Origin: an uncultured Thiodictyon sp. | Lineage (GTDB): Bacteria > Pseudomonadota > Gammaproteobacteria > Chromatiales > Chromatiaceae | Length of the DNA stretch: 64,000 bases | Direction of reading: 5' to 3' | Assembly (NCBI RefSeq): GCF_903946935.1 | Contig: NZ_CAJAXH010000014.1 | Coordinates: forward strand, 133-64,132 | Shown: one piece after another, positions 4,959-60,952 of the stretch | Numbering within the stretch: the stretch's first letter is position 1 | Layout: every line of letters starts with the position of its first letter | Program-made: the position numbers and the translations under genes | The notes under the pieces: model-generated | What the model saw: only the letters and a program-made list of their open reading frames with translations | The model's database searches: none | Told to the model about the DNA's origin: nothing

Positions 4959-5058
4959 GGCGTGAGTGAAAATCTCCGGCGCTTCGGTTAGAGTTCCGGG
5001 CCTTCCAACAACACACCCGGCCGACACCGTCCGGGGACATCCCGGGGGACCGACTGCC

Positions 5059-5751: not shown

Positions 5752-5790
5752 TCTTCCGCCCACTCACCGCTACCCAGGAGGCGCCGCCGC

Positions 5791-6468: not shown

Positions 6469-6472
6469 TTAT

Positions 6473-6662: not shown

Positions 6663-6803
6663 CTATTTTTCGCGGGATAACAGAATGGAGCGGTGGTTCG
6701 TGGTGTTCGATTTTGAATTGAGGGTGGCGATGGTGGGTCGGCGATGGCGACGCTGGCCTTGAATCAACCGTCGTCCGTTTGAATCCTCTTGCCGGAGCCT
6801 CCC

Positions 6804-8294: not shown

Positions 8295-8298
8295 ATGA

Positions 8299-8469
8299 CC
8301 TAAGCCTGAGCCAGGGAATTACTCACGCCAAGGCGCCAAGCTCGCCAAGAAAGACAATAGGCTATGCGAAGTTACCAGATCATTCGCCGGGTGAATCGCC
8401 AAGCGTCGATAACACACTGAAATTACTTGGCGAGCTTGGCGCCTTGGCGTGACAACTGCTTTTTCTAGG
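8299..8469. mobile_element. CGCCAAG-family MITE-like element, copy 1
   Basis: Core 8323-8452: TCACGCCAAGGCGCCAAGCTCGCCAAG ... CTTGGCGAGCTTGGCGCCTTGGCGTGA, a perfect 27 bp inverted pair; outer ends CCTAA...CTAGG. Confidence 0.8.
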
Positions 8470-8489
8470 ATGATCGACGTCAGGGCGCG

Positions 8490-9296
8490 TCAACTCACTT
8501 CATCCGTCCAAACCCTGAACCCGGTCAGCGTATTGGGGCCGAAGGTGCTGCTGAGTGCCACATCGGCGGCATCCCGGCCGCGGGCGATCAACACCCGACC
8601 GATGCGGGGCACATTGTTGCGGGCGTCGAAGGTATACCATTGACCGCCCAGATAGACATCGAACCAGGCCGAGAAATCCATCGGGCTGTCGGCCGGCGGG
8701 ACGCCGATATCGCCCAGATAGCCGGTGCAGTAACGGGCGGGGATATTCATACAGCGGCAGAAGGTGACGGCAAGGTGTGCGAAATCGCGGCACACCCCGC
8801 GCCGTTCATTGAATACCTCCCAGGCGGTGCGGGTGGCGCGGGCGTGCTCATAGCCGAAGGTGATATGGCGATGCACGAAGTCGCAGATTGCCTGTACCCG
8901 CCCCCAGCCGGTCGGCCCCTTGCCGAACAGGTCCCAGGCGACCTGTGACAGCCGATCGGTCTCGCAATAGCGGCTGCCCAGCAAGAAGACCAGGGTCTCC
9001 TCCGGCAGGTCCTGCACCGCGTGCTGGATCGCCATGGGCACGATGACATCCGGCATCCCCGAATCATTCACCACCGCGTCGGTCGACAGCCGGAACTGAC
9101 CCTTGGGCGCCACGATCCGGCTACACCAATTGCCGAAACCGTCGCGATAGGCGGTGATGGGGACCGATGGCTGGGTGACCAGGTGGTCGGGGACGACCAG
9201 ATCGGACACGCGCGTGAAATGCACGTGCAACGTCAGGATCATCGGCGTCGGCTGGGGACAGTCATAGACCAATTCGTAGCCAACTCGGATCTTCAT
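8490..9296 (-). CDS. Transglutaminase-like family protein
   Basis: MKIRVGYELVY..., FLLGSRYCETD, GVCRDFAHL (Cys), IPARYCTGYLGDI, DFSAWF, WYTFDAR. Confidence 0.9.
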   Translation of the reverse strand: MKIRVGYELVYDCPQPTPMILTLHVHFTRVSDLVVPDHLVTQPSVPITAYRDGFGNWCSRIVAPKGQFRLSTDAVVNDSGMPDVIVPMAIQHAVQDLPEETLVFLLGSRYCETDRLSQVAWDLFGKGPTGWGRVQAICDFVHRHITFGYEHARATRTAWEVFNERRGVCRDFAHLAVTFCRCMNIPARYCTGYLGDIGVPPADSPMDFSAWFDVYLGGQWYTFDARNNVPRIGRVLIARGRDAADVALSSTFGPNTLTGFRVWTDEVS

Positions 9297-9338
9297 AATC
9301 AGTCTCTTGTTGGTGGTCGGCGGCCCCGCGGTCTTGAG

Positions 9339-9502
9339 CCTGACAAGGGCAGTTGTCACGCCAAGACGCCAAGCCGCCAAGATTTTTCAGTGGATTACCG
9401 GTGTTAGCCCATTCCCCCGGCGGATGGTCTGGTGCCTTCGCCTGCCCTATTGCATTTCTTGGCGAGCTTGGCGCCTTGGCGTGAGCAATTGGCTGATCTA
9501 GG
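9339..9502. mobile_element. CGCCAAG-family MITE-like element, copy 2 (inverted relative to copy 1)
   Basis: Core 9356-9484 has the same inverted ends; the internal segment aligns with copy 1 on the minus strand (AAGAAA.CAATAGG...CCAGA...CGCCGGG.GAAT...CACTGAAA). Confidence 0.8.
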
Positions 9503-9503
9503 T

Positions 9504-10538
9504 TCAATGCAGTTGCATCGCCATCGCCATCGCCATCGCCATCGCGATGGCAGCCCGTAAGCTCCCCAGGTCGGCCCGATCGGTGCCGGCCAGGTCGAGC
9601 GCGGTGCCGTGATCCACTGAGGTCCGGATGATCGGCAGCCCGAGGGTGATGTTGACGGCCTGGCCGAACCCCAGGTGTTTGAGTACCGGCAGACCTTGAT
9701 CGTGATACATGGCGAGCACTGCATCCGCAGCGGCCAGACGCTCGTGTACAAAGACGGTATCCGCCGGCAATGGGCCCCGCAGGTCCCAGCCGCGTCCGCG
9801 CAGCCGCTCCAATACCGGTTCGATGATCTCGATCTCCTCGCGCCCCAGGTGTCCGCCTTCCCCGGCGTGGGGGTTGAGTCCGCAGACCAGGATGCGCGGG
9901 GCCGCGATACCGAAGCGCCGCACCAGGTCCTCATGCAGGATCGCGATCACCTGCTCAAGCAGCGGCGCAGTAATCGTCGCGGCGACCTCCTTCAATGGCA
10001 GGTGGGTGGTGACCAGGGCCACCCGCAGGCCCGGCGTAGCGAGCAGCATCACCGGGTGTGCCGTGCAGCGCTCGGCCAGATATTCGGTGTGGCCGGTGAA
10101 CGGCAGACCGGCGTCGTTGACGATGCCCTTATGCACCGGCCCCGTGACCAGTGCGTCGAAGACCCCGGCGCGGGTGCCGTCGCAGGCAATCCGCAGCGTC
10201 TCCAGTACATAGGCCGCATTGGCACGGTCGAGTCGGCCGGGCTGCACCGGTGCGCCCAAAGTCACCGGGAGCACCATCAGAGACCCCGGCGGGTTTGGGC
10301 TTGGCGGACGGTCGGGGGCATACTCTAGGCACCGCAGGGGCAACCCGAGGGCGCGCGCGCGTTCGGTGAGTAAGCCCGGATCGGCTACCGCGACCAACTG
10401 GGCTGCGAGCGGCTCTTGGACCAGTCGCACCAGCAGGTCGGGGCCGATCCCGGCCGGCTCTCCCGGGGTGACCGCGAGCCGCGGCGTGGCCTGGCCGGGT
10501 CCGGCCGTTGGCCACTCAGCGCTTGGTGTCGGCGTCAT
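9504..10538 (-). CDS. pdxA: 4-hydroxythreonine-4-phosphate dehydrogenase
   Basis: [53 protein letters not shown]. Confidence 0.97.
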
Positions 10539-22766: not shown

Positions 22767-22842
22767 GGGTGCTTAGCTCAGCTGGGAGAGCATCGCCCTT
22801 ACAAGGCGAGGGTCGCAGGTTCGATCCCTGCAGCACCCACCA
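22767..22842 (+). tRNA. tRNA-Val(TAC)
   Basis: GGGTGCTTAGCTCAGCTGGGAGAGC...CCCTTACAAGGCG...GGTTCGATCC...CACCCACCA, 76 nt. Confidence 0.97.
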
Positions 22843-22908: not shown

Positions 22909-22985
22909 GGAGCGGTAGTTCAGTTGGTTAGAATACCGGCCTGTCACGCCGGGGGTCGCGGGTTCGAGCCCCGTCCGCTCCGCCA
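22909..22985 (+). tRNA. tRNA-Asp(GTC)
   Basis: GGAGCGGTAGTTCAGTTGGTTAGAATACCGGCCTGTCACGCCGG...TTCGAGCCCCGTCCGCTCCGCCA, 77 nt. Confidence 0.97.
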
Positions 22986-37047: not shown

Positions 37048-38094
37048 ATGTTCGATTTGACCGAGACCGCCATCCGCTGGGTGGAGCAGGGGGTGGTGCC
37101 AGACGCCGTGATCCGCGGTGGCATCCGCACCTTGCTGCGCCAACGCCTGGCCACGCTGCCCACGGACGACGTGGCCGCCGCCGCCGCACACACCAGCGAC
37201 TTCGTCGCCATGATGGACGCAGCCCCCATCGCCGAGGTGCCGGAGCTGGCCAATGCCCAGCACTATGAGTTGCCCCCGGAGTTCTTCGTCGCGGTCCTGG
37301 GGCCGCGGCGCAAGTACAGTTCCTGTCTGTGGTCCCCGGGGGTGGAGACCCTGGCCGAGGCGGAGGACGAGTCATTGCAGGTGACGGCGCACCGTGCCGG
37401 CATCGCCGACGGCATGGAGGTACTGGAGCTGGGCTGCGGCTGGGGCGCCTTCAGCCTCTATGTGGCCGAGCGCTACCCCGCCTGTCGCGTCACCGCCGTC
37501 TCCAACTCACACGGCCAGCGCGGTTTCATCGAGGCCGAGGCGCAGCGGCGCGGTATCGGCAACCTCAGCGTCATCACCGCGGACATGAACGCCTTTGCCG
37601 CCCCCGGGCGCTTCGACCGCATCGTGTCGATCGAGATGTTCGAGCACATGCGCAACCACCGCAGACTGTTCGCCCGGGTCCACGACTGGCTCAAGCCCCA
37701 GGGCCGGTTCCTGATGCACATCTTCTGTCACCGCGCCCACCCCTATGCCTTCGAGGATCAGGGCCCGAGCGACTGGATGAGCCACCATTTCTTCTCCGGC
37801 GGCATCATGCCGAGCGACGAGCTGCCGCTCTGGTTCCAGGACCATCTGAAAATTCTGGATCGCTGGCGCTGGGACGGCCGCCACTACGAGCGCACACTCA
37901 ACACCTGGCTGGAGCAGATGGACGCCGCCCGCGCCGAGGTCTGGCCCATCTTGGATGCCACCTACGGCGCCGACCAGGCCGCCACCTGGTGGACGCGCTG
38001 GCGCCTCTTCTTCATGGCCTGCGCCGAGCTCTTCGGCTATCGCGACGGTCAGGAGTGGTGGGTCAGCCACTACCTGTTCGAGCGGCGGGGATAG
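37048..38094 (+). CDS. SAM-dependent methyltransferase, cyclopropane-fatty-acyl synthase (CMAS) family
   Basis: ANAQHYELPPEFF, KYSSCLW, LELGCGWG, FDRIVSIEMFEHMRN, FFSGGIMPS, FFMACAELFG. Confidence 0.88.
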   Translation: MFDLTETAIRWVEQGVVPDAVIRGGIRTLLRQRLATLPTDDVAAAAAHTSDFVAMMDAAPIAEVPELANAQHYELPPEFFVAVLGPRRKYSSCLWSPGVETLAEAEDESLQVTAHRAGIADGMEVLELGCGWGAFSLYVAERYPACRVTAVSNSHGQRGFIEAEAQRRGIGNLSVITADMNAFAAPGRFDRIVSIEMFEHMRNHRRLFARVHDWLKPQGRFLMHIFCHRAHPYAFEDQGPSDWMSHHFFSGGIMPSDELPLWFQDHLKILDRWRWDGRHYERTLNTWLEQMDAARAEVWPILDATYGADQAATWWTRWRLFFMACAELFGYRDGQEWWVSHYLFERRG

Positions 38095-38290
38095 GCGCAA
38101 GGGCGGGCCACTCCTGCCTCGTAGGAGCGGCCCCCAGGCCGCGACGGGTCGCCCGTGAACCTCGCGGCCAGAGCCGGTCGCGGACCACCGACCTCGCTGC
38201 CCTCGCTCATCGCCCCAGCCGCCGCCAGCCCGCCAAAACTGGAGGTCGAGGCTTCAGCCGGTGGCGCCTCCCAGGTCCGCCGACGCCGCA

Positions 38291-41147
38291 TCACGCAGCA
38301 GGCAGCAAGGCGCGGCCGAAATATTGATAGAAGGCGTCAGCGGGGTCTTCCACCAGGTTCTCCCACATACCGCGGACCTGCGCTTGGGACGGCGCCTCCG
38401 GCCGGTGGGCGCAGTGGTTACGCAGGTCCAGCATAGCGTTCAGTGCCTTGCCACGCCGTTGACGCACCTCGGACGCGCTCCGCAATAGATGCGCACCGAA
38501 GCGATTCAACAGCAGGCGCTCGATCGGGTCCACGGTCCCGGCGCCATGGTGTAAGGCCCGCTTCAAGGTGATCGCCATGGGTCCCAACATCAGGTGGTCC
38601 CGCTTGCCGTCGAGGAACGCCGCTACCTGGGCGCCCATCCGGTCTTTACCCACGTCCGTTCCCGTGCGCCAGTCCTGGCGCAGCGGCTGGAAGACCTGCT
38701 CCACCAGGGTCCGCTCGAGCGCCAACCCGAGGTTGAGCCCGGCATACCGGGACAGCCATTCATGCTCCAGACAGTGCAGCCCGCAAGCCAGGAAACGCTG
38801 CTCCTGCGCGCCCAGCACCTGGGTCCAGACCGGATCGAGCAGCGCCTGGAGCTGGAGCCGGGCCGCCGCCAGTTCGCCGTCGCACACCGCCTGGCTCGCA
38901 TCCGCCACCGCCCGGTTGAGTGCGGCGGCGATCTTCGCTTCGATGTCCTCGCGCCTGCCCGCGTCGGCGCTGGCCCAGTCCGCGGCATATTGCCTCTGGA
39001 CCTCGACCCAGGCGTGGATCAGCGCCTCGCCAAAACCCTGCCAGCGGATCGGGAGCCCCTGCACCAGGTGCGATGCCATGGTTCGGCTCAACGATTTGAG
39101 GTCTTCCCAGGCCTTGGTCCGCTCCTCCGTGCGGGCCTGGTCAGTAGCCGCGGCGTTCCACTGCTTCAGGGTCGCCAGCCGCTGCGCCGCGAAGGGTTCC
39201 CAAACGGCTTTGAGTTCAGGCTCGAGCCATTTGCGCCAGTCGTTGGTCGCCGCGAGGTCAAGTCCCCGGGCCGGGTTGCCAGCGGCATCCTCGAAGAGCC
39301 CGTTCACAAATGTGACGTCGAGCAACCTCTGCAGCGTGTCGCTGCGCCGCAAGAGGGCCTCGATGTCCATGTCCGAGGACGGCGCGAAGCCCAGGTCGAT
39401 CAGCTCCAGTTTCAGCATCAGGCCCGCCACCTTTGCGACTCGTTGGGCGATATCGGCGCGATCGGCAGCGACCGGCGCCTGCTGGACCAGCACCGCCGCG
39501 GCGCGCTGATAGCTCTCCACCGCCGCCGATGCCGCCTCGCGCCGCACCTGGAACTCGGCCAGGACGAGATAGCCAGCGGGGTCTGAGGGACAGGCCGCCA
39601 CATAGTCGCGCAGCATCGCTTCCGCCTGGGCCGGATCGCCGCGGGTCTCCAGGTCGGCGGCCTGGAGGCGGGCGGACTCGGCGGTGCCGCCGAAATAGAG
39701 TAGGCGCCAGTCGGTCAGGCGCTGCATCATAAGCACCAGCCCCGCGATCCCCTCGGCCGCCAGCCCGGTTTCAACAAGCAGCGCCATCGCCTCGCGTAGC
39801 GCCTCCTGCGCCGCCCAATGCATTGCCGTCGAGGCCGGGGCGCTCCCCGGCTCGGCCGGGTCCAGGTGCTCGCGGATGATCTCGGCGATGAACTGCGGCT
39901 GGCGGGCGGCCAGGTAATATTTGAGGGTCAGATCGAACAGCCGCTCGCGCAGACCGCGCAGGAGATGGACCCCGGCGCGCTCCAGGTCGCGCAGGCGGCC
40001 CAGGCCCTCGTGGGCCGTATCCGCGGCGCTCATGGGGTCGCCCTGCTGCGACAGTGTGATGGCCTTGTTGCCGTAGGCCTTGGCCTCGGTATCGGCGCGT
40101 TCGAGCCAGAGTTCCTCCCCGGGTCGTGCCGTGGCCAGCCCGATCGCCTCGTCACAGGCCTCCACTGCCGCCGCCAGAGTGGCCGCGGTGCCTTGGTCCG
40201 AGAGGGCATTGCCCTTGTTCATGTGGGCCATGGCCAGGCCGTTGCGGTACTCGGCCACGCCGAGGTCGAGCTCTTGCCGCAGCCGGATCGCCTCGTCATA
40301 GGCCGCCACCGCCGCCGCCAGGGTGGCCGGGGTGCCCTGGGCCTGGAGGGCATTGCCCTTGTTCATGTGGGCCATGGCCAGGTCGTTGCGGTACTGGGCC
40401 ACGCTGAGGTCGAGTCCCTGCCCCAGCCGGATCGCCTCGTCGTAGGCCCCCACCGCCGCCGCCAGGGCGGCCGGGGTGCCCTGGGTCTGGAGGGTAAGGC
40501 CCTTGTTGTAGTGGGCCATGGCTAGCAGCCTGTCGGACTTGATGGCGTAACCGATTGATTAAAAAGGAAAACGACTTTTTGGCGCAAAAGAGGAAACTCT
40601 TTGCATTCAATCGGTTGCATCACTAAGTCCGACAGCCTGCTAGGCCGTTGCGGTACTCGGCCACGCCGAGGTCGAGCTCTTGCCGCAGCCGGATCGCCTC
40701 GTCACAGGCCGCCACCGCCGCCGCCAAGGTGGCCGGGGTTCCCTGGGCCGCGAGGACAACGCCCTTGTTCATGTGGGCGTTGGCCAGGTGTTTGCGGTAC
40801 TCGACCACGCCGAGGTCGAGCCCCTGGTACAGGCGTATCGCCTCGTCATAGGCCGCCACCGCCGCCGTCAGAGCGGCCGGGGTGCCCTGGGACTGAAGGG
40901 CATTGCCCTTGTTGAAGTGAGCACTGCCCAGGTCTTTGCGGTACTCGGCCACGCCGATGTCCAGCCCCTGCCATAGCCGGATCGCCTCGTCATAGGCAGC
41001 CACCGCAGCCGCCAGGGCGGCCGGGGTCCGCTGGGCCAGGAGGGCATTGCCCTTCTCGACAAGGTCCGAGCCACGTTGAGTGGGGTCCAGCGGATTGCCC
41101 CAACTACTCGCGCTCGACACCTGCCCGAGGTTATAGCTGATGTCCAT
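38291..41147 (-). pseudogene. TPR-repeat protein with C-terminal HEPN-like domain, interrupted by a 118 bp MITE
   Basis: Six near-identical 48-aa repeats (AHMNKGNALQAQGTPATLAAAVAAYDEAIRLRQELDLGVAEYRN). Removing one CTAG plus the MITE restores a single 912-aa frame (..RNGLAMAHYNKG..). LRNHCAH (RxxxxH) lies near the C-terminus. Confidence 0.8.
40522..40643. mobile_element. 118 bp MITE with CTAG target duplication, copy A
   Basis: CTAG-CAGCCTGTCGGACTT ... AAGTCCGACAGCCTG-CTAG; AT-rich interior. Confidence 0.9.
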
Positions 41148-41443
41148 GATCCGCTCACTCAAACCGCCCCCATCGCCCCATTGCAATTGCGGCAGATTCT
41201 ACCCGCGCCCCCGGCGACGGGGAATCGCTCAGGCCCCGCGATAGACCCGCAATCCCAGGCACCGCTGCATGCCGTGGCGTTGATCATCGCCCCCGTCAGC
41301 GGCGGTCCGTCTACAACCGGAGGTCGAGGCTTCAGCCGGTGGCGGCCCCAGAGGTAGCGAAGGGAAATCAGCGGCGCTTGCACGCCGGACCGCCTAACAG
41401 CCGTGGCCACAAGACCAGTCACCCAGGACGATGAAGGTCCCCC

Positions 41444-41517
41444 GTGGGAGCGGCTTCAGCCGCGACGAGGCCGCTCTGCGGCTTGCGAGGTCGCGTCGCG
41501 GCTGAAGCCGCTCCCAC
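41444..41517. repeat. REPIN-like doublet (GTGG class REP)
   Basis: GTGGGAGCGGCTTCAGCCGCGA ... TCGCGGCTGAAGCCGCTCCCAC. Confidence 0.85.
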
Positions 41518-41666
41518 CGGGCGCCAGCCTGACTTTCTCGGAAAAGCATCGGCATCCGGTGGTGGGAACGCTGATCGCGGCAGCCCCGGTCATGGCGCCA
41601 CCCTTGCGCCTGCCGCCGCGTCGGTCTATGTTCGGCTGATCCGTTCTGCAAGATTGAAAACCGACG

Positions 41667-41954
41667 ATGCAACACTTCTCCACCCAGGATGCGGCGGCGA
41701 GTTTCGGGCAGGTGCTCGATGCCGCCTGCCGCGAGCCCGTGGCCATCGAACGCAACGGGCACCCCGTGGCGGTGCTTATGTCCAAGGGGGTCTTCGATGA
41801 GTTCGAGGCACTGAAGCTGGAGCGGCTGCGCGCCGCGGTCGACCAGGGAATCGCGGCCATCGAGCGTGGCGATTACACCGAACTCGATGAGGGCGAGCTG
41901 GCCGGTTTCGCGGACCGCATCAAGACGGCGGGGCGCCGGCGCCGACCGGAATGA
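41667..41954 (+). CDS. Phd/YefM-family antitoxin with ParD-like C-terminus
   Basis: FSTQDAAASFGQVLDAACREPVAIERNGHPVAVLMS; LRAAVDQGIAAIERGDY; ATGA overlap with the toxin. Confidence 0.88.
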   Translation: MQHFSTQDAAASFGQVLDAACREPVAIERNGHPVAVLMSKGVFDEFEALKLERLRAAVDQGIAAIERGDYTELDEGELAGFADRIKTAGRRRRPE

Positions 41955-42238
41955 ATTATCGGATCTCGTCGCAGGCCGCGAGTGACTTGGAGTCCATCTG
42001 GGATTTTACGGCGGATCGCTGGAATGCTGACCAGGCAGACCGGTATATCGATGCCTTGATGGCGCGCGTGTCCTGGCTGACCCGTAACCAAGCGCTCTGG
42101 CAGGACCGCCCGGATATCCGTTCCGGGATGTACGCCTACCCTGAGCAAAGCCACATGATCTTTTTCCGCGCGTCAGGTGCATGCATCGAAATCCTGCGGG
42201 TGCTGCATCGGCGCATGGATGTTAAACGCCATCTGTAA
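41951..42238 (+). CDS. ParE/RelE-family toxin
   Basis: YRISSQAASDLESIWDFTADRWNADQADRY...HMIFFR...IEILRVLHRRMD. Confidence 0.9.
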   Translation: MNYRISSQAASDLESIWDFTADRWNADQADRYIDALMARVSWLTRNQALWQDRPDIRSGMYAYPEQSHMIFFRASGACIEILRVLHRRMDVKRHL

Positions 42239-42249
42239 ACCCGCAAAGC

Positions 42250-43810
42250 GTGACCGGAGCGGTTCAATTGGATCAGCAGTCAGAGTCGGACACCGGCATC
42301 TATCCCTTTTCCACACTGCTCGCGGCGGACCCGGACGCGGGCGATGCGGGCGGTTACAGCATCCTGCTGGCGGGGCTGCGCCACCGCGTTCACCTGCGCC
42401 AGGCGACCCCGCTGCCTGGGCTCTACCGGCGGCAGTTGCGTAAGTTGCGGCTGGACTGGTGCCGGGACTTCACGGACCACGGATGGAACCTGCATCCTTA
42501 TCTGAACACCCCACCAGGCGATGCGTTGCCGGGGCGCTGCTTTGCGCCCGCGCATGCGCTCTGCCCGAGCGCGCATGAGGCGCTATTCGGCAAGAGCTTT
42601 CCGCGCGCGGGCGCGCCGACGACTGATGCGGACCTGGTCTATCGGCGGCTGGATGCGCGGGACCAGGGGTGCCGACACGAGGAGCCGCTGCTGCTATCGC
42701 TGGGCACCGGGGCGCATTGGCTGGGGAGCGAGTTACAGGTGGCCGTGCCGGACGGCGACGGTCCACCCGAGACCCTGGGGTTTCGGGTGGAGTGGGCGGA
42801 TCTGTGGCTGTTCCCTGACAGCCACGCGCTGCACCCGCTGTGCAATGCCGTCCTGGCCTGCAAGCTGGTGCCGACGCGGGTCACGGACCTGAGCGGCGCG
42901 ACCCGGTCCTATGGGGTGGGCGACCTGGCGCTGTTGAATCGCCTGCTGCGTGACCTGGACCACAGCGAGCGGGGCGGGGCCTGGTTGAACGCCGCCGGCG
43001 GTGGGCCGCAGGAGCACTTCTGGGGCGGGGTGCTGCGGCACTGGCTCGGGCTCACCATGGACGGGCCTCGGGTCGCCGCCGGGCCGGAAAACGTGCTGCG
43101 CCTGGAGTCCGGGGATGAGGTCTGGGCCGATCACCGCAGCCACTATGTGAAGGTATTGACCGTCGCGCGCATCGCCCCGCCGCCCGCCGACGGGGGCTTC
43201 TCCTGCCCGCGGGTGGAACCGCCGCTTGCGCCCGCGCGTATGGCCCGGGAGCAGGCCGCCGGCATCTGGTCCCCGGAGCAGTCGGCCTGCCTTCAGGCGC
43301 AGTCACTGGGCTATCCGGGCCTGGGCGAGGCGTTGCTCTACGAGCTAGCGAGTATCTCGCGTGAGGGTAGTGCGCTCGGGCTCAACGGGGACCCGTCCTG
43401 GCAGGCGAATCTGGAGTATCTGCGGGGGCAGTCCGGGGTGGCGATCTGGGAGCACTGGCGGGGGCTGGCGCTGCGCGATACCTGCGCCTTTCTCGCCTGG
43501 CATCCGCGGATGCCGATCCTGGGGCAGGCGGAGTCACGTTACTACCCGCTCTATCTCTGTGGACCAGCGCTCCAACGCCGGGCGTCAGCAGGCCATGCTG
43601 CTGGTGGCCTTGATCTATCCGGCGGGGTTTCTGTGGGACCTCAAGAAAGACCCGATCCTCAAGTATCTGGGGGCCTGGGATACCTGGTGGCTGGCGGCCG
43701 GGACTGGCGCACTGGTGGTCCTGGTCATCGCGCTCTATTTGGTGCTCGGGCCGCGCGTCAGCCGGTGGCTGGGGCGATTGGCGGATTGGGTGAGGCGGCG
43801 GGGATGGTAG
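42250..43810 (+). pseudogene. CorA-like membrane effector (large soluble domain plus 2 TM), frameshifted near 43557
   Basis: Soluble domain (LHPYL, FRVEWADLWLFPD, VLACKL, DLALLNRLLR, YYPLYL) in the 42250 frame; two hydrophobic helices (MLLVALIYPAGFLW; WWLAAGTGALVVLVIALYLVL) in the +1 frame ending at TAG 43810. Family call is by recalled resemblance, not by search. Confidence 0.55.
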
Positions 43811-43901
43811 GCCATCGGCGGGCTCGGTGCGGTGCGCCCAGCACCGGTGACACCGTGAAGACGCTGGGCAGGTATCGGTGCGGGGGCAAAGACGCTTGCG
43901 T

Positions 43902-44035
43902 CTGGGAGCGCCGACATTCTGTCGGCCAACCGCCGCAGGCGGTTCGCAGTTTCGAGGTTAATCCCATAGGGCGTTGTTTGCGCGATGACCCAACGGCGCT
44001 GCGCGCCGTGGCCGACAGAATGTCGGCGCTCCCAG
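43902..44035. repeat. REPIN/MITE-like element with 25-27 bp inverted ends
   Basis: CTGGGAGCGCCGACATTCTGTCGGC ... GCCGACAGAATGTCGGCGCTCCCAG. Confidence 0.85.
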
Positions 44036-44112
44036 GCGCCGCCTGACGGCGGTGGGGTGCCTGCGAATACCTCGCCAGTCTCAAAGCGGTGTCGCAAGCC
44101 TATGGTCCTATC

Positions 44113-45198
44113 ATGACCGATCTTCTCTATCGCTTCGTCCCCATGGGTGCGACCGCCGCGCCGGACCCGCGCCGGCTGTGGCTCGACGTGGGCAACCGCT
44201 TCGGCCCTGGTCTGATCGATCACCATCAGCCCGACGGCCCAGACCGCTGCACGGCGGCCCTGGTGCTGGAACAGGAGGCGACCATTCTGGCCCAGGCGCA
44301 GGCGCTGCCGGCGGGTGAACCGCTGGAGATCGTCACCCACCGCCAGCCGGATCTGGACGCCATCACCGCGACCTATTTTGTGGAGTCGCTGCTCCACGGG
44401 ACCCTGTCCCGCCCGGCGGCGGATCGGTGGGCGGCGGCGGTCTGCGCCGTCGACCGCGGGCATACCCGCCTGGAGCCGGACCGGCCGATTACCCCCTATG
44501 CCGTCTTTCTCGCCTGCCTGGAACTGGCGCGGCAGGACGCGGATCCGGACCCGGCCCAACCCGATGGGACCAGCCTGGCCGCGGTGCGGGCCGGCCAGCG
44601 GTTCGTCGCCTGGGTGGTCGGGCAGTTGGCGGCGGGGGTCGGGCTGGACCAGTTGGGCGCGCGGCTGGCGGCCGAGCCCGCCTGGGCGGCGCCGCTCGAC
44701 CTGGTCCGCGCGGATCAGGGGCGCTACCGGCGTGACCTGGCGCGTGCCGAGCGCCTGACGGTCGCCTTGCCGCGTGCGACGGGCGAAGGGGGCGAGCGGG
44801 TGCCGGGGCTCTGGATTGCGGCCCCCGAGTCGCTGTTGTTCAAGGCCTGGGCGCGGGGCGACCGTGCGGGTGCCGAGGACCCCCGGGGCTTCGTCTTCAC
44901 TGCGGTCGAGTTGTCGCCGACCCGGGTCATCCTGAGTGTTGCGCCCGGACTGGGGCTCTGGCTCAACGGGCTGGGCGAGGCCCTGGAGGCGGCGGAGACC
45001 GCGCAGCGGCGGCGCCTCGGCCGCCCGCGCCGGGGTGAGCCGCGCCCTGGCTATGCCGGCCCGGACCCCTGGTATGACGGCCGCTCCCCGCTGCATGGCT
45101 ATACCATCGTGGACGCACCGCACGGCGGCACCCTGCTCGCCCCGGCGCAGGTCCGGGCGGTCTTTGCGCAGTGGCTCGCCGGGGCGTCGCCGAACTGA
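44113..45198 (+). CDS. DHH-superfamily phosphoesterase, apparently circularly permuted
   Basis: LWLDVGN, IDHHQ, then VTHRQPDLDA. Confidence 0.65.
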   Translation: MTDLLYRFVPMGATAAPDPRRLWLDVGNRFGPGLIDHHQPDGPDRCTAALVLEQEATILAQAQALPAGEPLEIVTHRQPDLDAITATYFVESLLHGTLSRPAADRWAAAVCAVDRGHTRLEPDRPITPYAVFLACLELARQDADPDPAQPDGTSLAAVRAGQRFVAWVVGQLAAGVGLDQLGARLAAEPAWAAPLDLVRADQGRYRRDLARAERLTVALPRATGEGGERVPGLWIAAPESLLFKAWARGDRAGAEDPRGFVFTAVELSPTRVILSVAPGLGLWLNGLGEALEAAETAQRRRLGRPRRGEPRPGYAGPDPWYDGRSPLHGYTIVDAPHGGTLLAPAQVRAVFAQWLAGASPN

Positions 45199-45519
45199 TG
45201 GTTAAATCCCCCTGCATCAAGGTCTGCCGGCTGGACCCCGCGCTCGGCCTATGCCTCGGCTGTTTTCGCACGCGCGACGAAATCGCCGTTTGGCAGCGGG
45301 CGAGCGATGGCGTTAGGCTAGCAGGCTGTCGGACTTAGTGATGCAACCGATTGAATGCAAAGAGTTTCATCTTTTGCGCCAAAAAGTCGTTTTCCTGTTT
45401 AATCAATCGGTTACGCCATCAAGTCCGACAGGCTGCTAGGGATACTGGCCACGGTGGCCCGTCGCCGCGAGGAACACGATCCCTGGCAGGGCGATTTTCG
45501 ATGCGATTGCGAGGACTAA
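45198..45519 (+). pseudogene. DUF1289-family Fe-S/Cys-rich protein interrupted by the 118 bp MITE
   Basis: Removing the MITE gives MVKSPCIKVCRLDPALGLCLGCFRTRDEIAVWQRASDGVRLGILATVARRREEHDPWQGDFRCDCED*. Confidence 0.85.
45318..45439. mobile_element. 118 bp MITE with CTAG target duplication, copy B (inverted relative to A)
   Basis: Reverse complement matches copy A except at about 2 positions; CTAG at 45318-21 and 45436-39. Confidence 0.9.
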
Positions 45520-47965: not shown

Positions 47966-48002
47966 CTGGCGCGTCTTACCTTGCAAGTCAGCCCGGCACC
48001 CG

Positions 48003-48124
48003 GTGGGAGCGGCTTCAGCCGCGACGCGATCTCACAAGCTGCCGTGGCCTCGTCGCGGCTGAAGCCGCTCCCACGGGGGGACTTTCATCGTTCGCTGCCG
48101 TAGGAGCGGCCCCCAGGCCGCGAC
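48003..48124. repeat. REPIN-like doublet plus GTAG-class REP
   Basis: GTGGGAGCGGCTTCAGCCGCGA...TCGCGGCTGAAGCCGCTCCCAC (48003-48074); CGTAGGAGCGGCCCCCAGGCCGCGAC (48099-48124), identical to 38120-38145. Confidence 0.85.
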
Positions 48125-54248: not shown

Positions 54249-54322
54249 TGGAGCGGGTGATGGGAATCGAACCCACGCTATCAGCTTGGGAAGCTGAAGT
54301 TCTACCATTGAACTACACCCGC
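54249..54322 (-). tRNA. tRNA-Gly(CCC)
   Basis: Reverse complement GCGGGTGTAGTTCAATGGTAGAAC...CTTCCCAAG...GGTTCGATTCCCATCACCCGCTCCA, 74 nt. Confidence 0.97.
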
Positions 54323-54406
54323 GAGAGGGAGCGATTCTAGGCACTCCGGAGGCGTTGTGCAACACCTCGATGCATTTGAATCGCAGCCACCGAGCTGCGG
54401 AGCCCG

Positions 54407-54478
54407 GTGGGAGCGGCTTGCGCCGCGACGAGCCCACGGCAGCTTGCGATGTCGCGTCGCGGCTGAAGCCGCTCCCAC
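54407..54478. repeat. REPIN-like doublet (GTGG class)
   Basis: GTGGGAGCGGCTTGCGCCGCGA ... TCGCGGCTGAAGCCGCTCCCAC. Confidence 0.85.
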
Positions 54479-54488
54479 GGGCGGCGTC

Positions 54489-57914: not shown

Positions 57915-57978
57915 TCATCGTCGTGGCCGCGGCCCCAATGTTCTGTTGGAGGTCGAGGCTTTACCGTGAAAGTCGCGC

Positions 57979-58049
57979 GTGGGAGCGGCTTCAGCCGCGA
58001 TCAGGCCAAGGCAGTTTGTGAGGTCGCGTCGCGGCTGATGCCGCTCCCG
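57979..58049. repeat. REPIN-like doublet upstream of the cas operon
   Basis: GTGGGAGCGGCTTCAGCCGCGA ... TCGCGGCTGATGCCGCTCCC. Confidence 0.8.
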
Positions 58050-58152
58050 CCGGCCAGCGGCCAGAGCCATGATCGCGGCGCACGTTTGCGCCGCAGGACA
58101 AACCGCGTCCGTTCTGTTTTAATGACGGCTGGGTTTCGGCCGGACGCAGCAA

Positions 58153-59928
58153 ATGTTTCATTTTCTTTACGAACTGAGCCAATGCCTGCCGGAGCGGGCG
58201 GCCTGGGAACGCCTCAACGAAGGCATGCCCGCCAACTACGACCGCGGACTGGCGTTGTGCTTCGGCCCGGGGGGCGAGTGGTGCGCAGTCAAGACCTACA
58301 GCGGCAACCAAGGCGTGGTCTACCGCTCCGGGCCGCCCAATGGCACCGATTTCACCCCCTGCTGCAAACTGGCAGGCAACACCGCCAACCGCTTGGCCGC
58401 AAGCGTCAAGGAACTCGCCGACCATCCCAGCCTGCCGGGCGAAAAGCGCCAGTGGCTGGTCGACAGTCTCACCTGCTTCAACGACGCGCAAGCGGCGATC
58501 TGGGCCGAGGTTGAGACGGCACAAAAGGCGGCCGGCATCGACGGCAAGGAGCATCGCGGCTATGTCTACTGGGCCGATGACCAGATGCAGTCGGTGTATG
58601 CCTGGCCGGAAGTTCAGTCCTTTCTGGTCGAGCGGGCCTTGTCCGCCTTTGCCGACAAGGGCGGGGAGCGGGCGAGCGGCAGTTGTGCGGTTTGCGGTCG
58701 CTCGGCGGTCAAGGTCTTTGGCAACTATGCCGTCGTGGCCTGCTACAACCTTAATAATCCTGGCGCCATCGCCGGCGGCTTCCAGGCCGGCAAGGCGCAT
58801 CGCAATTTCCCCGTGTGCGGCGACTGCGCCCTGTCCATCGCCGAGACCTTCACCTTCGCCGAGACCTACCTGTCCAGCAGCATGGCCGGGCAGAGCTATC
58901 TGGTTCTGCCCTACAGCAACAACCCAGAGGTACGCGAAGAGCTGCGCGCCCGTCTGGGTCAGCGTCCCGATCGCTATCAATTGGGCAAGGCCCGCGATCT
59001 ACTCGCCGATGAACTGGCCCTGACGGAAGAATTTGCCGGTGTGGGCGATCAACTCGCCTTCGCGTTGATCTTTTTCAAACAACAAAACGCGGCCTGGCGC
59101 GTACAGGCCGAGGTGCAACAATTGCTGCCCAGCCGTCTGCACCTGTTGCATCGCGCCGGCCGGACCATTGCCAATGCCCTCGACTTGACGGCCGAGAGCA
59201 AGACCGACAGCAAGCCGGTCCAGATCAACGCCATGACCTTCAAAAACTTCTCCAGCGCCAGTGACAAGGCCAGTGAGGATACCCTGCGCGGCTGGCTGGC
59301 GGCCCTGTTTGATGGGCAGACAGTGAACCCGAGCCATTTTCTGCACTGCCTGGTCGGCAAATTGCTCAGTACCGGCAAGCGTGAGCCCAAGTTTTTGCAC
59401 TGGATGACGCTCCAGGCCTGGGGCCTCTACCGCTATGCCCGATTGACCAAACTCATCGTCCCCGCCCCCGTGATGGAGCATCGCGCCATGTCCGAAGTCA
59501 TCCCCAATAGCCCCTATGGGCGCTATACCCAGGAGCACGCCGATTTCTTTCGCCGCCCGGAATTGGTCGTGGCCTTTCTGACCGGCTGCTATGCCTCGCA
59601 GGTGGCCTCGGTACAGCGGCAGGTCCGCGGCGCCGATCCATTCACCAAGAAATTCATCGGCCGGCTGCTGGGTCGCCCGCAGTTGCAACGACTCTACCGC
59701 GAAGGTCACGGCAAGCTGGCCCAATACGGCAAGCTTGGCTATGTCATCACCGGACTCGACCCGGACCTGGCCAATGCCTGGGTGGCCTGTGGCGAGGATT
59801 GGGCCATCGGCGATGAAGAGACAACCTTTGCCTTTACGATCGGTTATAGCCTGGCCTACCGGATCGGACAGCTCGATAAGGCCGCTACCGGCGTCACTGA
59901 AGCGGCACCCACAGACCTCCATGATTGA
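58153..59928 (+). CDS. cas8b: CRISPR-associated Cas8b (TM1802/Csh1-like), type I-B large subunit
   Basis: First gene of a cas7-cas5-cas3 operon; zinc ribbon CAVCG...FPVCGDCA; helical C-terminus with FAFTIGY. Confidence 0.75.
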   Translation: MFHFLYELSQCLPERAAWERLNEGMPANYDRGLALCFGPGGEWCAVKTYSGNQGVVYRSGPPNGTDFTPCCKLAGNTANRLAASVKELADHPSLPGEKRQWLVDSLTCFNDAQAAIWAEVETAQKAAGIDGKEHRGYVYWADDQMQSVYAWPEVQSFLVERALSAFADKGGERASGSCAVCGRSAVKVFGNYAVVACYNLNNPGAIAGGFQAGKAHRNFPVCGDCALSIAETFTFAETYLSSSMAGQSYLVLPYSNNPEVREELRARLGQRPDRYQLGKARDLLADELALTEEFAGVGDQLAFALIFFKQQNAAWRVQAEVQQLLPSRLHLLHRAGRTIANALDLTAESKTDSKPVQINAMTFKNFSSASDKASEDTLRGWLAALFDGQTVNPSHFLHCLVGKLLSTGKREPKFLHWMTLQAWGLYRYARLTKLIVPAPVMEHRAMSEVIPNSPYGRYTQEHADFFRRPELVVAFLTGCYASQVASVQRQVRGADPFTKKFIGRLLGRPQLQRLYREGHGKLAQYGKLGYVITGLDPDLANAWVACGEDWAIGDEETTFAFTIGYSLAYRIGQLDKAATGVTEAAPTDLHD

Positions 59929-59965: not shown

Positions 59966-60952
59966 ATGACCGCGATCACCAGCCGCTACGAAATTCTCTT
60001 CATCTACGAGGCCAAGGACTGCAACCCCAATGGCGACCCACTCGATGAGAACCGCCCGCGTACCGATCCCGAGACCGGCGAGGCGACCATCAGCGATGTG
60101 CGCATCAAGCGCACCGTGCGCGATTGGTTCCTGAGCCTGGAGCCGGATGTCGAACAGCGCCTGGCCGCTGGCCGTGAGGTATTGATTCGCGACACCCTCA
60201 AGGCCGACGGATTTCTGTCAGAGGGCAAGGACCGCGCCGAGCAGTTTTTGGCCGAGGCCGCCAAGGGCAAGAAGGGCGAGGCCAAGCGTCAGGCCCTGGA
60301 GGCCGCGGTCTTGCGCGGTTGTATCGATGCGCGCCTGTTCGGCGCCACCCTGCCGCTCGGCAAGAACGAGCCCTCGCTGCAACTGACCGGGCCGGTGCAG
60401 TTCTCCGCCTTCAACCGCTCACTGCATCGCGTCAGCCCGACCCTGGTGCAGCAGACCGCCGCCTACGCGGGCAGCGACAAGGGCAACCAAAAATCGTTCG
60501 CCGAACGCTGGCTGTTGCCCTACGCACTGGTCGCCGCCTACGGGGTGGCCAACGAAACCGCCGCGCAGACCACCGGACTCAGCGAGGCCGACCTCGACCT
60601 GCTGCTGCAAGGTCTATGGCGCGGCACCGCGGCGCTCAACACCCATTCTAAGATCGGCCATGACCCGCTGCTCCTGGTGGTGGCTCAGTATCGCCCCGGC
60701 TACCGGCTGGGCGCCCTGCCGCGCCGCATCAGTCTCGCCAACCAGGGCGTCGAAGACACCGCCCTGCGCTCGACCCGCGATTTTTGTCTGGAGGTCGGCG
60801 AGCTGTTGAGCGCCCTGCACCACTATCCGCAACTGACCGGCCTGCGGGTGATGCAAGACCCGCGTCTGCGCTGCCAATCCGGCGCTCAGGCCGGACTCTT
60901 TGCCGAGTTGGCCGCAGCGGCAGGATTGCCGGTCACCGCCTTGGAACTGTAG
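59966..60952 (+). CDS. cas7: CRISPR-associated Cas7 (Csh2/Csd2 family)
   Basis: YEAKDCNPNGDPLDENRPR, SDVRIKRTVRD, IDARLFGA, TGPVQF; AGGAG RBS upstream. Confidence 0.93.
   Translation: MTAITSRYEILFIYEAKDCNPNGDPLDENRPRTDPETGEATISDVRIKRTVRDWFLSLEPDVEQRLAAGREVLIRDTLKADGFLSEGKDRAEQFLAEAAKGKKGEAKRQALEAAVLRGCIDARLFGATLPLGKNEPSLQLTGPVQFSAFNRSLHRVSPTLVQQTAAYAGSDKGNQKSFAERWLLPYALVAAYGVANETAAQTTGLSEADLDLLLQGLWRGTAALNTHSKIGHDPLLLVVAQYRPGYRLGALPRRISLANQGVEDTALRSTRDFCLEVGELLSALHHYPQLTGLRVMQDPRLRCQSGAQAGLFAELAAAAGLPVTALEL

What the first reader, a model, noticed from the sequence alone, without database searches (positions are those of the whole stretch)
38291..41147. Tandem 48-aa TPR array fused to a C-terminal HEPN-like RNase: candidate sensor-effector defence protein
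Seen: six near-identical 144 bp repeats with variable positions concentrated in the first helix (AH[FMY]NKG[NVL]), then a further TPR, a coiled-coil region and a terminal domain with LERTL...LRNHCAH. Known: RxxxxH is the HEPN RNase signature, and TPR sensors fused to nucleases occur in anti-phage systems. Inference: a recombination-diversifiable sensor coupled to an abortive RNase, currently switched off by a MITE.
Basis: partly seen in the sequence, partly recalled or inferred. Interest (0 to 1): 0.68.

Follow-up and report, generated by a model that had tools for sequence, protein, structure and literature searches.

The report
MITE-broken TPR–HEPN-like defence gene
A bacterial gene for a repeat-rich sensor protein ending in a probable RNA-cutting (HEPN-like) domain has been split by a tiny mobile element; it belongs to a rare, unannotated family that usually sits beside CorA-like membrane proteins and DHH-like phosphoesterases, the pair known from type III CRISPR signalling.

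Summary
A minus-strand gene (41147→38291) encodes a 912-aa protein once a 114-bp MITE and one CTAG duplication are removed. It has six 48-aa repeats, 78–94% identical in DNA for units 1–5, so "near-identical" is overstated. Variable residues line one face of helix A.

The C-terminal domain carries E602…R700-N-H-C-A-H705, and E, R and H are ≥90% conserved across the family. A profile search of 1.84 billion representative proteins found only 81.

HEPN identity is likely but unproven:
- For: 20 of 52 members give DUF4145 hits, and others hit RiboL-PSP, Abi_2, KEN and Swt1.
- For: the pLDDT-95 model places the motifs where HEPN domains carry them.
- Against: every Pfam hit is below threshold.
- Against: Foldseek found no HEPN match in PDB or BFVD.
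- Neutral: PADLOC, NCBIfam and source annotations do not recognise the family.

New context: 8 of 12 family loci have CorA-like and/or DHH-like neighbours. This window does too. Its CorA-like gene also carries a deletion and frameshift, so the module looks dead rather than switched off.

Verdict: a new HEPN-like family fused to a diversifying TPR sensor, probably part of a CorA/DHH-linked conflict system. Function is untested.

The parts
40640..41147 (-). 5' part of the gene: N-terminal 27 aa, repeat units 1-2 (40923-41066, 40779-40922) and most of unit 3 (40641-40778), ending at the upstream CTAG
40522..40643 (.). MITE insertion: 114-bp core (40526-40639) flanked by a CTAG target duplication. 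It has 45-nt terminal inverted repeats, an AT-rich centre and no ORF
   Evidence: Inverted repeats. Hairpin of -62.4 kcal/mol, z = -8.8. Second copy 98% identical. Depth about 55-90x the flanks and many different flanking sequences.
40085..40521 (-). Last 5 nt of unit 3, then repeat units 4-6 (40373-40516, 40229-40372, 40085-40228). Unit 6 diverges in its second half
38909..40084 (-). Central helical region of about 390 aa, conserved across the family (LDPxxxGSAPxS, YFxGTA motifs). It contains canonical 34-aa TPRs; the rest is unannotated
   Evidence: Pfam TPR_14, E 1.2e-4. PDB profile hit to OGT TPRs, E 7e-6. Conservation.
38294..38908 (-). C-terminal helical domain of 205 aa, read as a divergent HEPN-like domain. 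Predicted catalytic residues: E602 (38714-38716) and R700-N-H-C-A-H705 (38405-38422)
   Evidence: Conservation. HEPN-clan sub-threshold hits. AF2 model with pLDDT 95.2. Coordinates.
41667..42238 (+). Phd/YefM antitoxin (41667-41954) and ParE toxin (41951-42238), divergent from the gene. The same pair sits beside the ortholog P0002
42250..43810 (+). Homolog of a CorA-like membrane protein, broken here. Residues 2-488 read in one frame (42292-43581). About 74 aa are deleted. The C-terminal TM part reads in another frame (43559-43804)
   Evidence: tblastn against L016 650-aa protein, E 6e-106 and 3e-14. L016 protein matches PADLOC CorA-like at E 7e-14. The window copy gives no PADLOC hit. Identical sequence in 4 runs.
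44089..45198 (+). DHH-like putative phosphoesterase of 369 aa, apparently intact. Its DHH motif lies N-terminal of the HxxPDxD motif
   Evidence: 58% identical to L016 353-aa gene. Pfam DHH E 0.0065 and 0.0018, below cut-off. The only PDB profile hits are DHH phosphodiesterases, E 0.01. Invariant D22, D33, H35, H73, D77, D79, D110; H34 is at least 90% conserved.
45318..45439 (.). Second copy of the same MITE, also flanked by CTAG

Best explanation
**What is shown.** The locus is a single gene for a 912-aa cytoplasmic protein, now a pseudogene. A 114-bp MITE inserted at a CTAG inside repeat unit 3 and stops translation after residue about 170.

**Architecture of the intact protein.**
- An N-terminal array of six 48-aa TPR-like helical hairpins. 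Their conserved scaffold carries a hypervariable stripe along helix A.
- About 390 aa of further helical and TPR structure.
- A C-terminal helical domain with a near-invariant Glu in one helix and R-N-x-C-A-H at the end of a later helix. I read this as a divergent, so far unannotated HEPN ribonuclease family, closest to Pfam DUF4145.

**Proposed mechanism (inferred, not shown).** The variable TPR surface binds a protein from an invading phage or mobile element. Binding relieves autoinhibition or drives dimerisation of the HEPN domains into a composite active site. Non-specific RNA cleavage then arrests the infected cell.

**Partners.** The protein probably does not act alone. Across the family it is typically encoded beside a CorA-like membrane protein and/or a DHH-like phosphoesterase. 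These are the same two protein types that act as effector and signal-degrading enzyme in type III CRISPR SAM-AMP signalling. No type III (cas10) gene was seen beside them, though this check was incomplete.

**State in this genome.** The CorA-like partner carries a deletion plus frameshift, so the whole module is decaying.
For: **Gene structure and MITE**
- Structure, frame restoration and second copy.
- The disrupted allele is the only one seen: 12 contigs.
- The junction contig has the same depth as its flanks in 4 runs, and no contig skips the MITE.
- No intact 912-aa allele exists among homologs.

**Repeats**
- copy number is 5, 6, 9 and 9. Entropy peaks at positions 45, 48, 2/3, 7 and 10/11, spaced i+3/4. 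At these codons there are 0 synonymous and 31 non-synonymous differences.

**Family**
- The search of 1.84 billion representative proteins returned 81.
- Members have N-terminal TPRs of many Pfam types, including TPR-S.

**HEPN-like domain**
- E602, R700 and H705 are at least 90% conserved.
- Of 52 domains scanned at E<=1, 20 hit DUF4145, 7 HEPN_RiboL-PSP, 3 Abi_2, 3 Ribonuc_2-5A and 2 HEPN_Swt1. Of the other 20 families listed, only SrfA (3) is hit by more than one member.
- These hits always cover the RNxxAH helix and the profile's C-terminal motif region.
- The AF2 model has pLDDT 95.2 and pTM 0.92. It puts E65 in a long helix, then a 65-aa poorly conserved insert, then R163..H168 at the end of the next core helix.
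- PMC3710099 describes HEPN this way: acidic residue in helix 2, insert between helices 2 and 3, Rx4-6H at the end of helix 3.
- DUF4145 is an experimentally active HEPN RNase in RAZR (PMC13017515).

**Partners**
- CorA-like neighbours: L009, L012, L014, L016, plus the window and L001.
- DHH-like neighbours: window, L001, L016.
- DHH-like domain fused to TM helices: L005, L012, L013.
- The CorA plus DHH (NrN) pairing is documented for type III CRISPR (PMC10600005; 10.1101/270033).
- CorA also co-occurs and fuses with a HEPN effector, Csm6-2 (PMC11229360).
Against: - No HEPN Pfam model reaches its curated cut-off. The best is DUF4145 at 18.8 bits against 23.1, E 0.0017.
- The similarity covers only about 40 residues around the motif.
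- Foldseek with a pLDDT-95 model finds nothing with E<1 in PDB or BFVD, and no HEPN structure ranks high.
- PDB sequence and profile searches are empty.
- PADLOC and NCBIfam give no match.
- No experiment or transcript data exist.
- From the DHH-like side the association is weak. Of 80 metagenomic DHH-like loci, only 2, both relatives of L001, have a TPR-HEPN gene within 9 kb.
- Four of 12 TPR-HEPN loci show neither partner.
- The 48-aa units themselves match no Pfam TPR model or PDB sequence.
Confidence: 0.55

Rival explanations
1. This is a stand-alone single-protein abortive-infection system. The TPR sensor and HEPN RNase suffice, and the CorA-like/DHH-like neighbours are merely co-residents of variable or defence islands.
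For: - Four of 12 loci lack both partner types.
- Most CorA-like/DHH-like cassettes lack a TPR-HEPN gene.
- Single-protein HEPN defence systems exist: RAZR and DS-11 CBS-HEPN.
- In the window and L001 the partner genes are divergent and separated by a Phd/ParE pair.
Against: - Adjacency recurs in 8 of 12 loci, among members that share only 23-36% identity in the C-terminal domain.
- Gene orders differ, and some arrangements look like tight operons: a 21-bp gap in L016, a 28-bp gap in L012 and a 14-bp gap in L013.
Confidence: 0.25
2. The C-terminal domain is not a nuclease. The RNxCAH and Glu residues serve ligand binding or folding in a novel helical domain. The protein would then be a TPR scaffold or regulator, for example of the CorA-like channel.
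For: - No fold match to any HEPN structure.
- All HEPN profile hits are sub-threshold and limited to the motif helix.
- Some members replace N with I or K, or shorten the motif, and one lacks the His.
Against: - E, R and H are the most conserved polar residues of the whole protein.
- The weak hits fall on at least six different HEPN families (DUF4145, RiboL-PSP, Abi_2, Ribonuc_2-5A, Swt1, MAE_28990) out of 24,736 Pfam models, which is hard to get by chance.
- The motif positions fit the published HEPN description.
Confidence: 0.2
3. The gene is still partly functional. The 742-aa ORF that starts at the native Met codon just after the MITE (40519) is expressed. It would give a shorter protein with three repeats and the complete effector.
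For: - The ORF starts with ATG two bases after the downstream CTAG of the MITE.
- Gene callers annotate it on 12 contigs.
Against: - No sigma-70-like promoter was found in 38000-41700.
- No evident Shine-Dalgarno sequence lies upstream (sequence).
- The MITE forms a -62 kcal/mol hairpin immediately upstream.
- The partner CorA-like gene is also broken.
- No RNA runs hold the sequence.
Confidence: 0.1

Closest known systems
DUF4145 (PF13643) HEPN family, e.g. RAZR / PD-T7-4 (zinc finger + DUF4145 RNase)
   Same: - It is the closest profile match: 20 of 52 members hit it, on the motif helix.
- It has an R...H catalytic pair.
- An N-terminal sensing module is fused to a C-terminal HEPN.
- RAZR is activated by phage proteins and acts by abortive infection (PMC13017515).
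   Different: - No member reaches the Pfam cut-off, and the PADLOC PD-T7-4 models do not match.
- The sensor is a TPR array of 300 to over 700 aa, not a zinc ribbon.
- A 65-aa insert lies between the Glu helix and the motif helix.
- The motif is R-N-x3-H (Rx4H), whereas RAZR uses R146...H154.
TPR-fused HEPN families catalogued by Anantharaman et al. 2013 (LA2681, C6orf70/DUF4209, STAND-TPR-S1-HEPN, DZIP3)
   Same: The architectural logic is the same: TPR repeats are joined to an Rx4-6H HEPN domain in predicted conflict systems (PMC3710099).
   Different: - None of the corresponding Pfam models (HEPN_LA2681, DUF4209) appears among the families listed for the hits.
- There is no STAND NTPase.
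- The CorA-like/DHH-like neighbourhood is not described for those families.
Type III CRISPR ancillary module CorA + NrN (DHH phosphodiesterase), with Csm6-2 (CARF-HEPN) co-occurrence and fusion
   Same: - The neighbours are a CorA-like membrane protein, matched by PADLOC CorA-like models at E 1e-11 to 1e-14, and a DHH-like protein.
- In three loci the DHH-like domain is fused to TM helices. This echoes the nrn-corA fusions reported in PMC10600005.
- A HEPN protein accompanies CorA, as reported in PMC11229360.
   Different: - No cas10 or CRISPR array lies beside them in the loci examined. The window's cas genes are type I and 15 kb away.
- The HEPN protein has TPRs rather than CARF.
- The DHH-like domain has a permuted motif order and only sub-threshold DHH scores.
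- The signal, if there is one, is unknown.
Avs / bacterial NLR-like proteins and fungal NLRs with highly conserved, hypervariable TPR/WD/ANK repeats
   Same: - C-terminal-type repeat sensors are fused to nuclease effectors.
- The repeats have high internal identity and hypervariable surface positions.
- Copy number varies, which suggests recombinational diversification (from my own knowledge).
   Different: - There is no STAND/NACHT ATPase.
- The repeats are N-terminal and the effector C-terminal.
- The repeat unit is 48 aa.

Membership tests
HEPN superfamily | Conserved Rx4-6H motif | tested here: met
   - L-R-N-[HQD]-C-A-H is invariant in R, N, C, A and H in 5 of 5 close homologs.
- R is invariant and H at least 90% conserved in 52 domains. 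A few members have R-I/K or a one-residue shorter spacing, and one lacks H.
HEPN superfamily | Motif at the end of core helix 3. Conserved acidic residue in helix 2. Variable insert between helices 2 and 3. | tested here: met
   - In the AF2 model (pLDDT 95.2), H50-79 carries E65, the insert spans 80-145, and H146-168 ends with R163..H168. H175-187 follows.
- This matches the description in PMC3710099.
HEPN superfamily | Significant profile match to an established HEPN family | tested here: inconclusive
   - The best score is DUF4145, E 0.0017, 18.8 bits against a 23.1-bit cut-off.
- However, 35 sub-threshold hits fall on five HEPN-clan families, and of the other 20 listed only SrfA is hit more than once. 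A sixth, MAE_28990, appears.
HEPN superfamily | Structural similarity to solved HEPN domains | tested here: not met
   - Foldseek found no hit with E<1 against PDB for either model, or against BFVD for the better one.
- The only HEPN-containing chains listed were 8y7f_B, rank 13 at E 2.4, and 4txa, rank 26 at E 5.2.
HEPN superfamily | Metal-independent RNase activity dependent on R and H | not testable with these tools
   Needs biochemistry.
TPR repeats | Match to TPR profiles or structures | tested here: inconclusive
   - The 48-aa units of this protein give no Pfam TPR hit and no PDB sequence hit.
- The central region does: TPR_14 at 22.9 bits against 23.5, and the OGT TPR profile at E 7e-6.
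- N-terminal arrays of other family members hit TPR_1, TPR_2, TPR_10, TPR_12 and TPR-S strongly.
MITE (non-autonomous IS-derived element) | Short, no ORF, terminal inverted repeats, target-site duplication, many copies | tested here: met
   - 114-bp core, 45-nt imperfect TIRs and a CTAG duplication at both copies.
- Hairpin with z = -8.8.
- Depth about 55-90x the flanks, with many different flanking sequences.
- The parent IS family was not identified. A CTAG target suggests the IS5 group (from memory).
Known anti-phage systems (PADLOC-DB v2) | HMM match to a catalogued defence protein | tested here: not met
   0 families at E<=1 for both the full protein and the C-terminal domain.
Type III CRISPR CorA/NrN ancillary module | CorA-like membrane protein next to a DHH (NrN) phosphodiesterase | tested here: inconclusive
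   - CorA-like: L016 E 7e-14, L014 5e-14, L009 2e-11, L012 5e-4. The window copy is broken and gives no hit.
- DHH: Pfam E 0.0018 and 0.0065, below cut-off.
- The only PDB hits are DHH phosphodiesterases, E 0.01.
- Two homologs carry precomputed PF01368.
Type III CRISPR CorA/NrN ancillary module | Located in a cas10-containing type III locus | tested here: not met
   - No CRISPR array is present in the window.
- The cas genes detected are type I Cas7/Cas8b at about 58-61 kb.
- No cas genes were called in L009, L012, L014 or L016.
- Caveat: only the first 25 of 67 PADLOC families were listed.

The most novel reading that the evidence does not exclude
TPR-HEPN, the CorA-like membrane protein and the DHH-like phosphoesterase may form a CRISPR-independent signalling defence module. 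The TPR array would sense an invader protein. The activated HEPN RNase, or the unannotated central region, would generate a small nucleotide or oligoribonucleotide signal, for example fragments ending in 2',3'-cyclic phosphate. That signal would open the CorA-like channel, and the DHH-like enzyme would degrade it. This would be a Cas10-free counterpart of SAM-AMP/CorA/NrN signalling.
Probability: 0.15. Interest if true: 0.85.

Novelty: new variant of a known kind. Interest (0 to 1): 0.6.

Why it matters
- **An unrecognised HEPN family.** If the C-terminal domain is a HEPN RNase, this family is missed by Pfam, NCBIfam, PADLOC and the source annotations, which call it 'hypothetical' or 'tetratricopeptide repeat protein'. 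It would add a TPR-sensor/HEPN-effector architecture without a STAND ATPase.
- **A natural example of diversification.** The repeat array, with one hypervariable helix face and variable copy number, shows how such sensors may change specificity.
- **CorA and DHH outside CRISPR.** CorA-like channels and DHH-like enzymes have so far been studied as type III CRISPR ancillaries. Their recurrent neighbourhood here suggests they also work in CRISPR-free contexts. That raises the testable question of what activates them there.
- **Turnover of such modules.** This window shows how they decay: a MITE that has spread to tens of copies in one gene, and a deletion plus frameshift in the next.

Tried and rejected
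**Fold searches**
- Foldseek against PDB with the shallow-alignment model and the deep-alignment model, and against BFVD, gave no meaningful hit.

**Sequence and family searches**
- PDB sequence and profile searches with the C-terminal domain matched only designed helical proteins.
- PADLOC and NCBIfam on the protein gave nothing.
- The search for homologous proteins with the 52-sequence domain alignment returned nothing, although the family exists. Low-complexity words probably swamped the candidate list.
With A1 it found only Thiorhodococcus drewsii.

**Attempt at a profile-profile HEPN test**
- I looked for a bona fide DUF4145 sequence to use. The RAZR paper has no held supplements, and the HEPN paper's supplement is only an index page.

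**Tests of the neighbours**
- The ~700-aa TM neighbours are not CorA-like by hhalign. They do contain the DHH-like domain.
- PDB searches with the 3-sequence DHH-like alignment and with the CorA-like protein gave no useful hit. The deeper alignment was needed.

**Other**
- No promoter-like site was found that could drive the 742-aa ORF.
- No RNA-seq run holds the sequence.
- A literature search for 'TPR-HEPN' and for CorA-like plus DHH plus anti-phage found no prior description.
Full report
**1. The observation**

The finding's coordinates hold one minus-strand gene, seen as two ORFs: 40623..41186 and 38291..40519. The 122 bases between them (40522-40643) have 45-nt terminal inverted repeats and begin and end with CTAG. 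Deleting 118 bases, the element plus one CTAG, gives a continuous 912-aa frame that reads ...EYRNGLA|MAHYNKG....

The inserted element behaves as a MITE:
- It folds into a -62.4 kcal/mol hairpin, z = -8.8.
- A second copy, 98% identical and also flanked by CTAG, lies at 45318-45439.
- In four independent pond-metagenome runs its depth is about 1,700-10,000, against 30-130 for the flanks. That is roughly 55-90 copies.
- Many different flanking sequences are attached to it.
- The gene-to-MITE junction contig has the same depth as the flanks, and no contig skips the element.

The same split gene is called on 12 contigs. No intact allele appears among the homologs.

**2. The repeats**

TRF finds the 144-bp period on both sides of the MITE. 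Six 48-aa units lie in register. Units 1-5 are 78-94% identical in DNA, and unit 6 matches only in its first half.

Repeat number differs among relatives: 5 in P0002, 9 in P0005 and 9 in P0006.

Entropy over 24 units from 5 proteins peaks at positions 48, 3, 10, 45, 11, 2, 7 and 32. The unit's helix A runs from about position 41 through position 11 of the next unit. The variable residues therefore follow an i+3/4 stripe on one helical face. At those codons, units 2-5 differ by 0 synonymous and 31 non-synonymous changes, against 29 and 34 elsewhere.

The 48-aa units themselves match no Pfam TPR model and no PDB sequence. 'TPR' rests on three things:
- the residue pattern;
- canonical TPRs further downstream (TPR_14 at E 1.2e-4; OGT TPR profile at E 7e-6);
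- the N-terminal arrays of other family members, which hit TPR_1, TPR_2, TPR_10, TPR_12 and TPR-S.

**3. The family**

A word-indexed search with the non-repeat part found only five relatives, from Thiodictyon, Thiorhodococcus drewsii and metagenomes.

A full HMMER search of 1.84 billion representatives with the C-terminal profile found 81 proteins. Most are 650-1270 aa with the domain at the C-terminus. Sources name them 'hypothetical' or 'tetratricopeptide repeat protein'. Examples include Azospirillum lipoferum 4B WP_014248286.1 and an Anaerolineae MAG.

**4. Is the C-terminal domain HEPN?**

Evidence for:
- LRN[HQD]CAH is invariant in the close homologs.
- Across the 52-61 members aligned, the most conserved polar residues of the whole protein are E602, R700 and H705.
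- Scanning 52 domains against Pfam at E<=1 gives DUF4145 in 20, HEPN_RiboL-PSP in 7, Abi_2 in 3, Ribonuc_2-5A (KEN) in 3 and HEPN_Swt1 in 2. Of the other 20 families listed, only SrfA (3) is hit more than once. MAE_28990-HEPN also appears.
- All these hits cover the motif helix and the following helix, and they map to the C-terminal motif region of each profile.
- With the 52-sequence alignment, AlphaFold2 gives pLDDT 95.2 and pTM 0.92. E65 sits in a long helix (50-79). A poorly conserved insert follows (80-145). R163...H168 close the next long helix (146-168), and a further helix follows.
- This is how Anantharaman et al. describe HEPN: acidic residue in helix 2, insert between helices 2 and 3, and Rx4-6H at the end of helix 3 (PMC3710099).
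- DUF4145 is a proven HEPN RNase in RAZR (PMC13017515).

Evidence against:
- No hit reaches a curated threshold. The best is 18.8 bits against 23.1.
- Foldseek finds no structure with E<1 in PDB or BFVD for either model.
- PDB sequence and profile searches are empty.

I rate HEPN identity at about 0.7. The domain is not a member of any existing Pfam HEPN family by that family's own cut-off.

**5. Context, which changes the picture**

Upstream and divergent lies a Phd/ParE pair, as in the ortholog locus L001. Beyond it are two ORFs, 42250-44046 and 44089-45198, with no Pfam hit at E<=0.001.

These two ORFs are homologous to the two genes that directly precede a distant family member in locus L016. 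The matches are 44% identity (E 8e-83) and 58% identity (E 1e-103). The L016 member is P0025, 31% identical in the C-terminal domain. All three L016 genes are on one strand, with a 21-bp gap before the TPR-HEPN gene.

*The first gene is CorA-like.* The L016 protein (650 aa) matches PADLOC 'CorA-like' models at E 7e-14 and 4e-13. CorA-like neighbours also occur in L009 (E 2e-11; Pfam CorA 2e-5), L012 and L014.

*The second gene belongs to a DHH-like family:*
- Pfam DHH scores are E 0.0018 and 0.0065, below cut-off.
- The family has 102 homologs. Two carry precomputed PF01368, and others are fused to TIR_2 or protein-kinase domains.
- D22, D33, H35, H73, P76, D77, D79 and D110 are invariant; H34 is at least 90% conserved.
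- The only PDB profile hits are DHH phosphodiesterases: GdpP-type at E 0.01 and 'DHH family' at E 0.22. The DHH motif lies N-terminal of HxxPDxD, which is a permuted order.

*The ~700-aa neighbours contain the same domain.* These proteins in T. drewsii (L005), L012 and Azospirillum (L013) are mutually homologous. Their N-terminal half is homologous to the DHH-like family (hhalign probability 99.1%, E 1.3e-18), and they end in TM helices. Their catalytic motifs look degenerate. They are not CorA-like.

*Counts.* Eight of 12 distinct TPR-HEPN loci carry CorA-like and/or DHH-like neighbours. Conversely, a metagenome scan with the DHH-like profile returned 80 loci. The closest ones all have a CorA-like gene directly upstream on the same strand. 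Only two loci, both relatives of L001, have a TPR-HEPN gene within 9 kb. The CorA-like/DHH-like cassette is therefore the wider unit, and TPR-HEPN is one of its variable companions.

*Precedent.* CorA next to a DHH nuclease (NrN), sometimes fused to it, is the known SAM-AMP-responsive ancillary module of type III CRISPR (PMC10600005; 10.1101/270033). CorA also co-occurs and fuses with the HEPN effector Csm6-2 (PMC11229360).

*No type III system is nearby.* I found no cas10 and no CRISPR array beside these genes. The window's only cas genes are type I Cas8b/Cas7 at about 58-61 kb. Only the first 25 of 67 PADLOC families were listed.

**6. State of the module in this genome**

- The CorA-like gene is broken. 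Residues 2-488 read in one frame (42292-43581). About 74 residues are missing. The TM part reads in another frame (43559-43804). The sequence is identical in four independent runs.
- The DHH-like gene looks intact.
- In the related locus L001 the lesions are different. The CorA-like gene is reduced to a 111-aa remnant and the DHH-like gene has an internal deletion, but TPR-HEPN is intact.
- This pattern fits repeated decay of a dispensable or costly module, not a reversible switch.

**7. Mechanism**

Shown: the architecture, the conservation, the insertion and the neighbourhood.

Inferred:
- The hypervariable TPR face binds an invader protein.
- Binding activates the HEPN RNase. HEPN domains typically work as dimers (from my own knowledge).
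- RNA cleavage arrests the cell.
- A CorA-like membrane protein and a DHH-like enzyme cooperate in most lineages.

How they are coupled is unknown. One speculative option is that a nucleotide or oligoribonucleotide signal links them.

**8. Novelty**

TPR-HEPN fusions as a class were catalogued in 2013, and single-protein HEPN defence systems are known. This family, its HEPN-like domain and its link to CorA-like/DHH-like genes outside CRISPR loci were not found in the libraries or papers searched. I class it as a new variant of a known kind.

Overall confidence by claim:
- one gene broken by a MITE: 0.95;
- HEPN-like domain: about 0.7;
- defence or conflict function: about 0.5;
- functional link to the CorA-like/DHH-like genes: about 0.5.

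Noticed in passing
window 45318-45439: A second copy of the 114-bp MITE, 98% identical and flanked by CTAG, lies just downstream of the DHH-like gene. In four metagenome runs the element's depth is about 55-90 times that of single-copy flanks, so it has proliferated strongly in this organism or community.
   Followed up: partly
window 43894-44055: Another high-copy short repeat lies between the CorA-like remnant and the DHH-like gene. Contig depth reaches about 11,000 against about 115 for the flanks. It includes the sequence that translates as 'WERRHSVG' in overlapping ORFs on both strands.
   Followed up: no
window 41428-41535; also 47985-48091, 54399-54483, 57948-58053: REP-like palindromic elements (GGGAGCGGCTTCAGCCGCGAC...GTCGCGGCTGAAGCCGCTCCC) recur in intergenic regions, including the region upstream of the TPR-HEPN gene.
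   Followed up: no
window 38207-38274 and 41284-41351: A 69-bp sequence, 81% identical and in the same orientation, lies on both flanks of the TPR-HEPN gene. It could be another dispersed repeat or a trace of the gene's insertion.
   Followed up: no
window 42250-43810: The CorA-like gene is a pseudogene: an in-gene deletion of about 74 aa plus a frameshift near 43555-43581. The lesion is identical in four independent runs.
   Followed up: yes
window 44089-45198 and alignment A11: The DHH-like family has its DHH motif N-terminal of the HxxPDxD motif, a permuted order relative to canonical DHH enzymes. Some members are fused to TIR_2 or protein-kinase domains. In metagenomes it forms a tight two-gene cassette with a CorA-like gene, without visible cas genes.
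   Followed up: partly
L005 (Thiorhodococcus drewsii AZ1, 4482-8841) and L015 (1-3594): A three-gene cassette of about 750 aa (weak CHAT hit, E 0.004), about 400 aa and about 300 aa is conserved next to TPR-HEPN genes in two distant loci. Its function is unknown.
   Followed up: partly
window 1348-3513 (-), about 58153-59928 (+), about 59966-60952 (+): An adenine DNA methyltransferase of type I/IIG kind lies at one end of the window. Type I CRISPR-Cas effector genes lie at the other: PADLOC reports a Cas8b match among the window's ORFs (provisionally the 58153-59928 ORF, position not confirmed), followed by Cas7 of the Csh2 family (PDB match). No CRISPR array lies within the window.
   Followed up: partly
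window 41667-42238: A Phd/YefM-ParE toxin-antitoxin pair lies between the TPR-HEPN gene and the CorA-like/DHH-like genes. It is conserved in the ortholog locus L001.
   Followed up: partly
window 22767-22839, 22909-22982, 54252-54322: Three tRNA genes. These are the only Rfam matches in the window.
   Followed up: no
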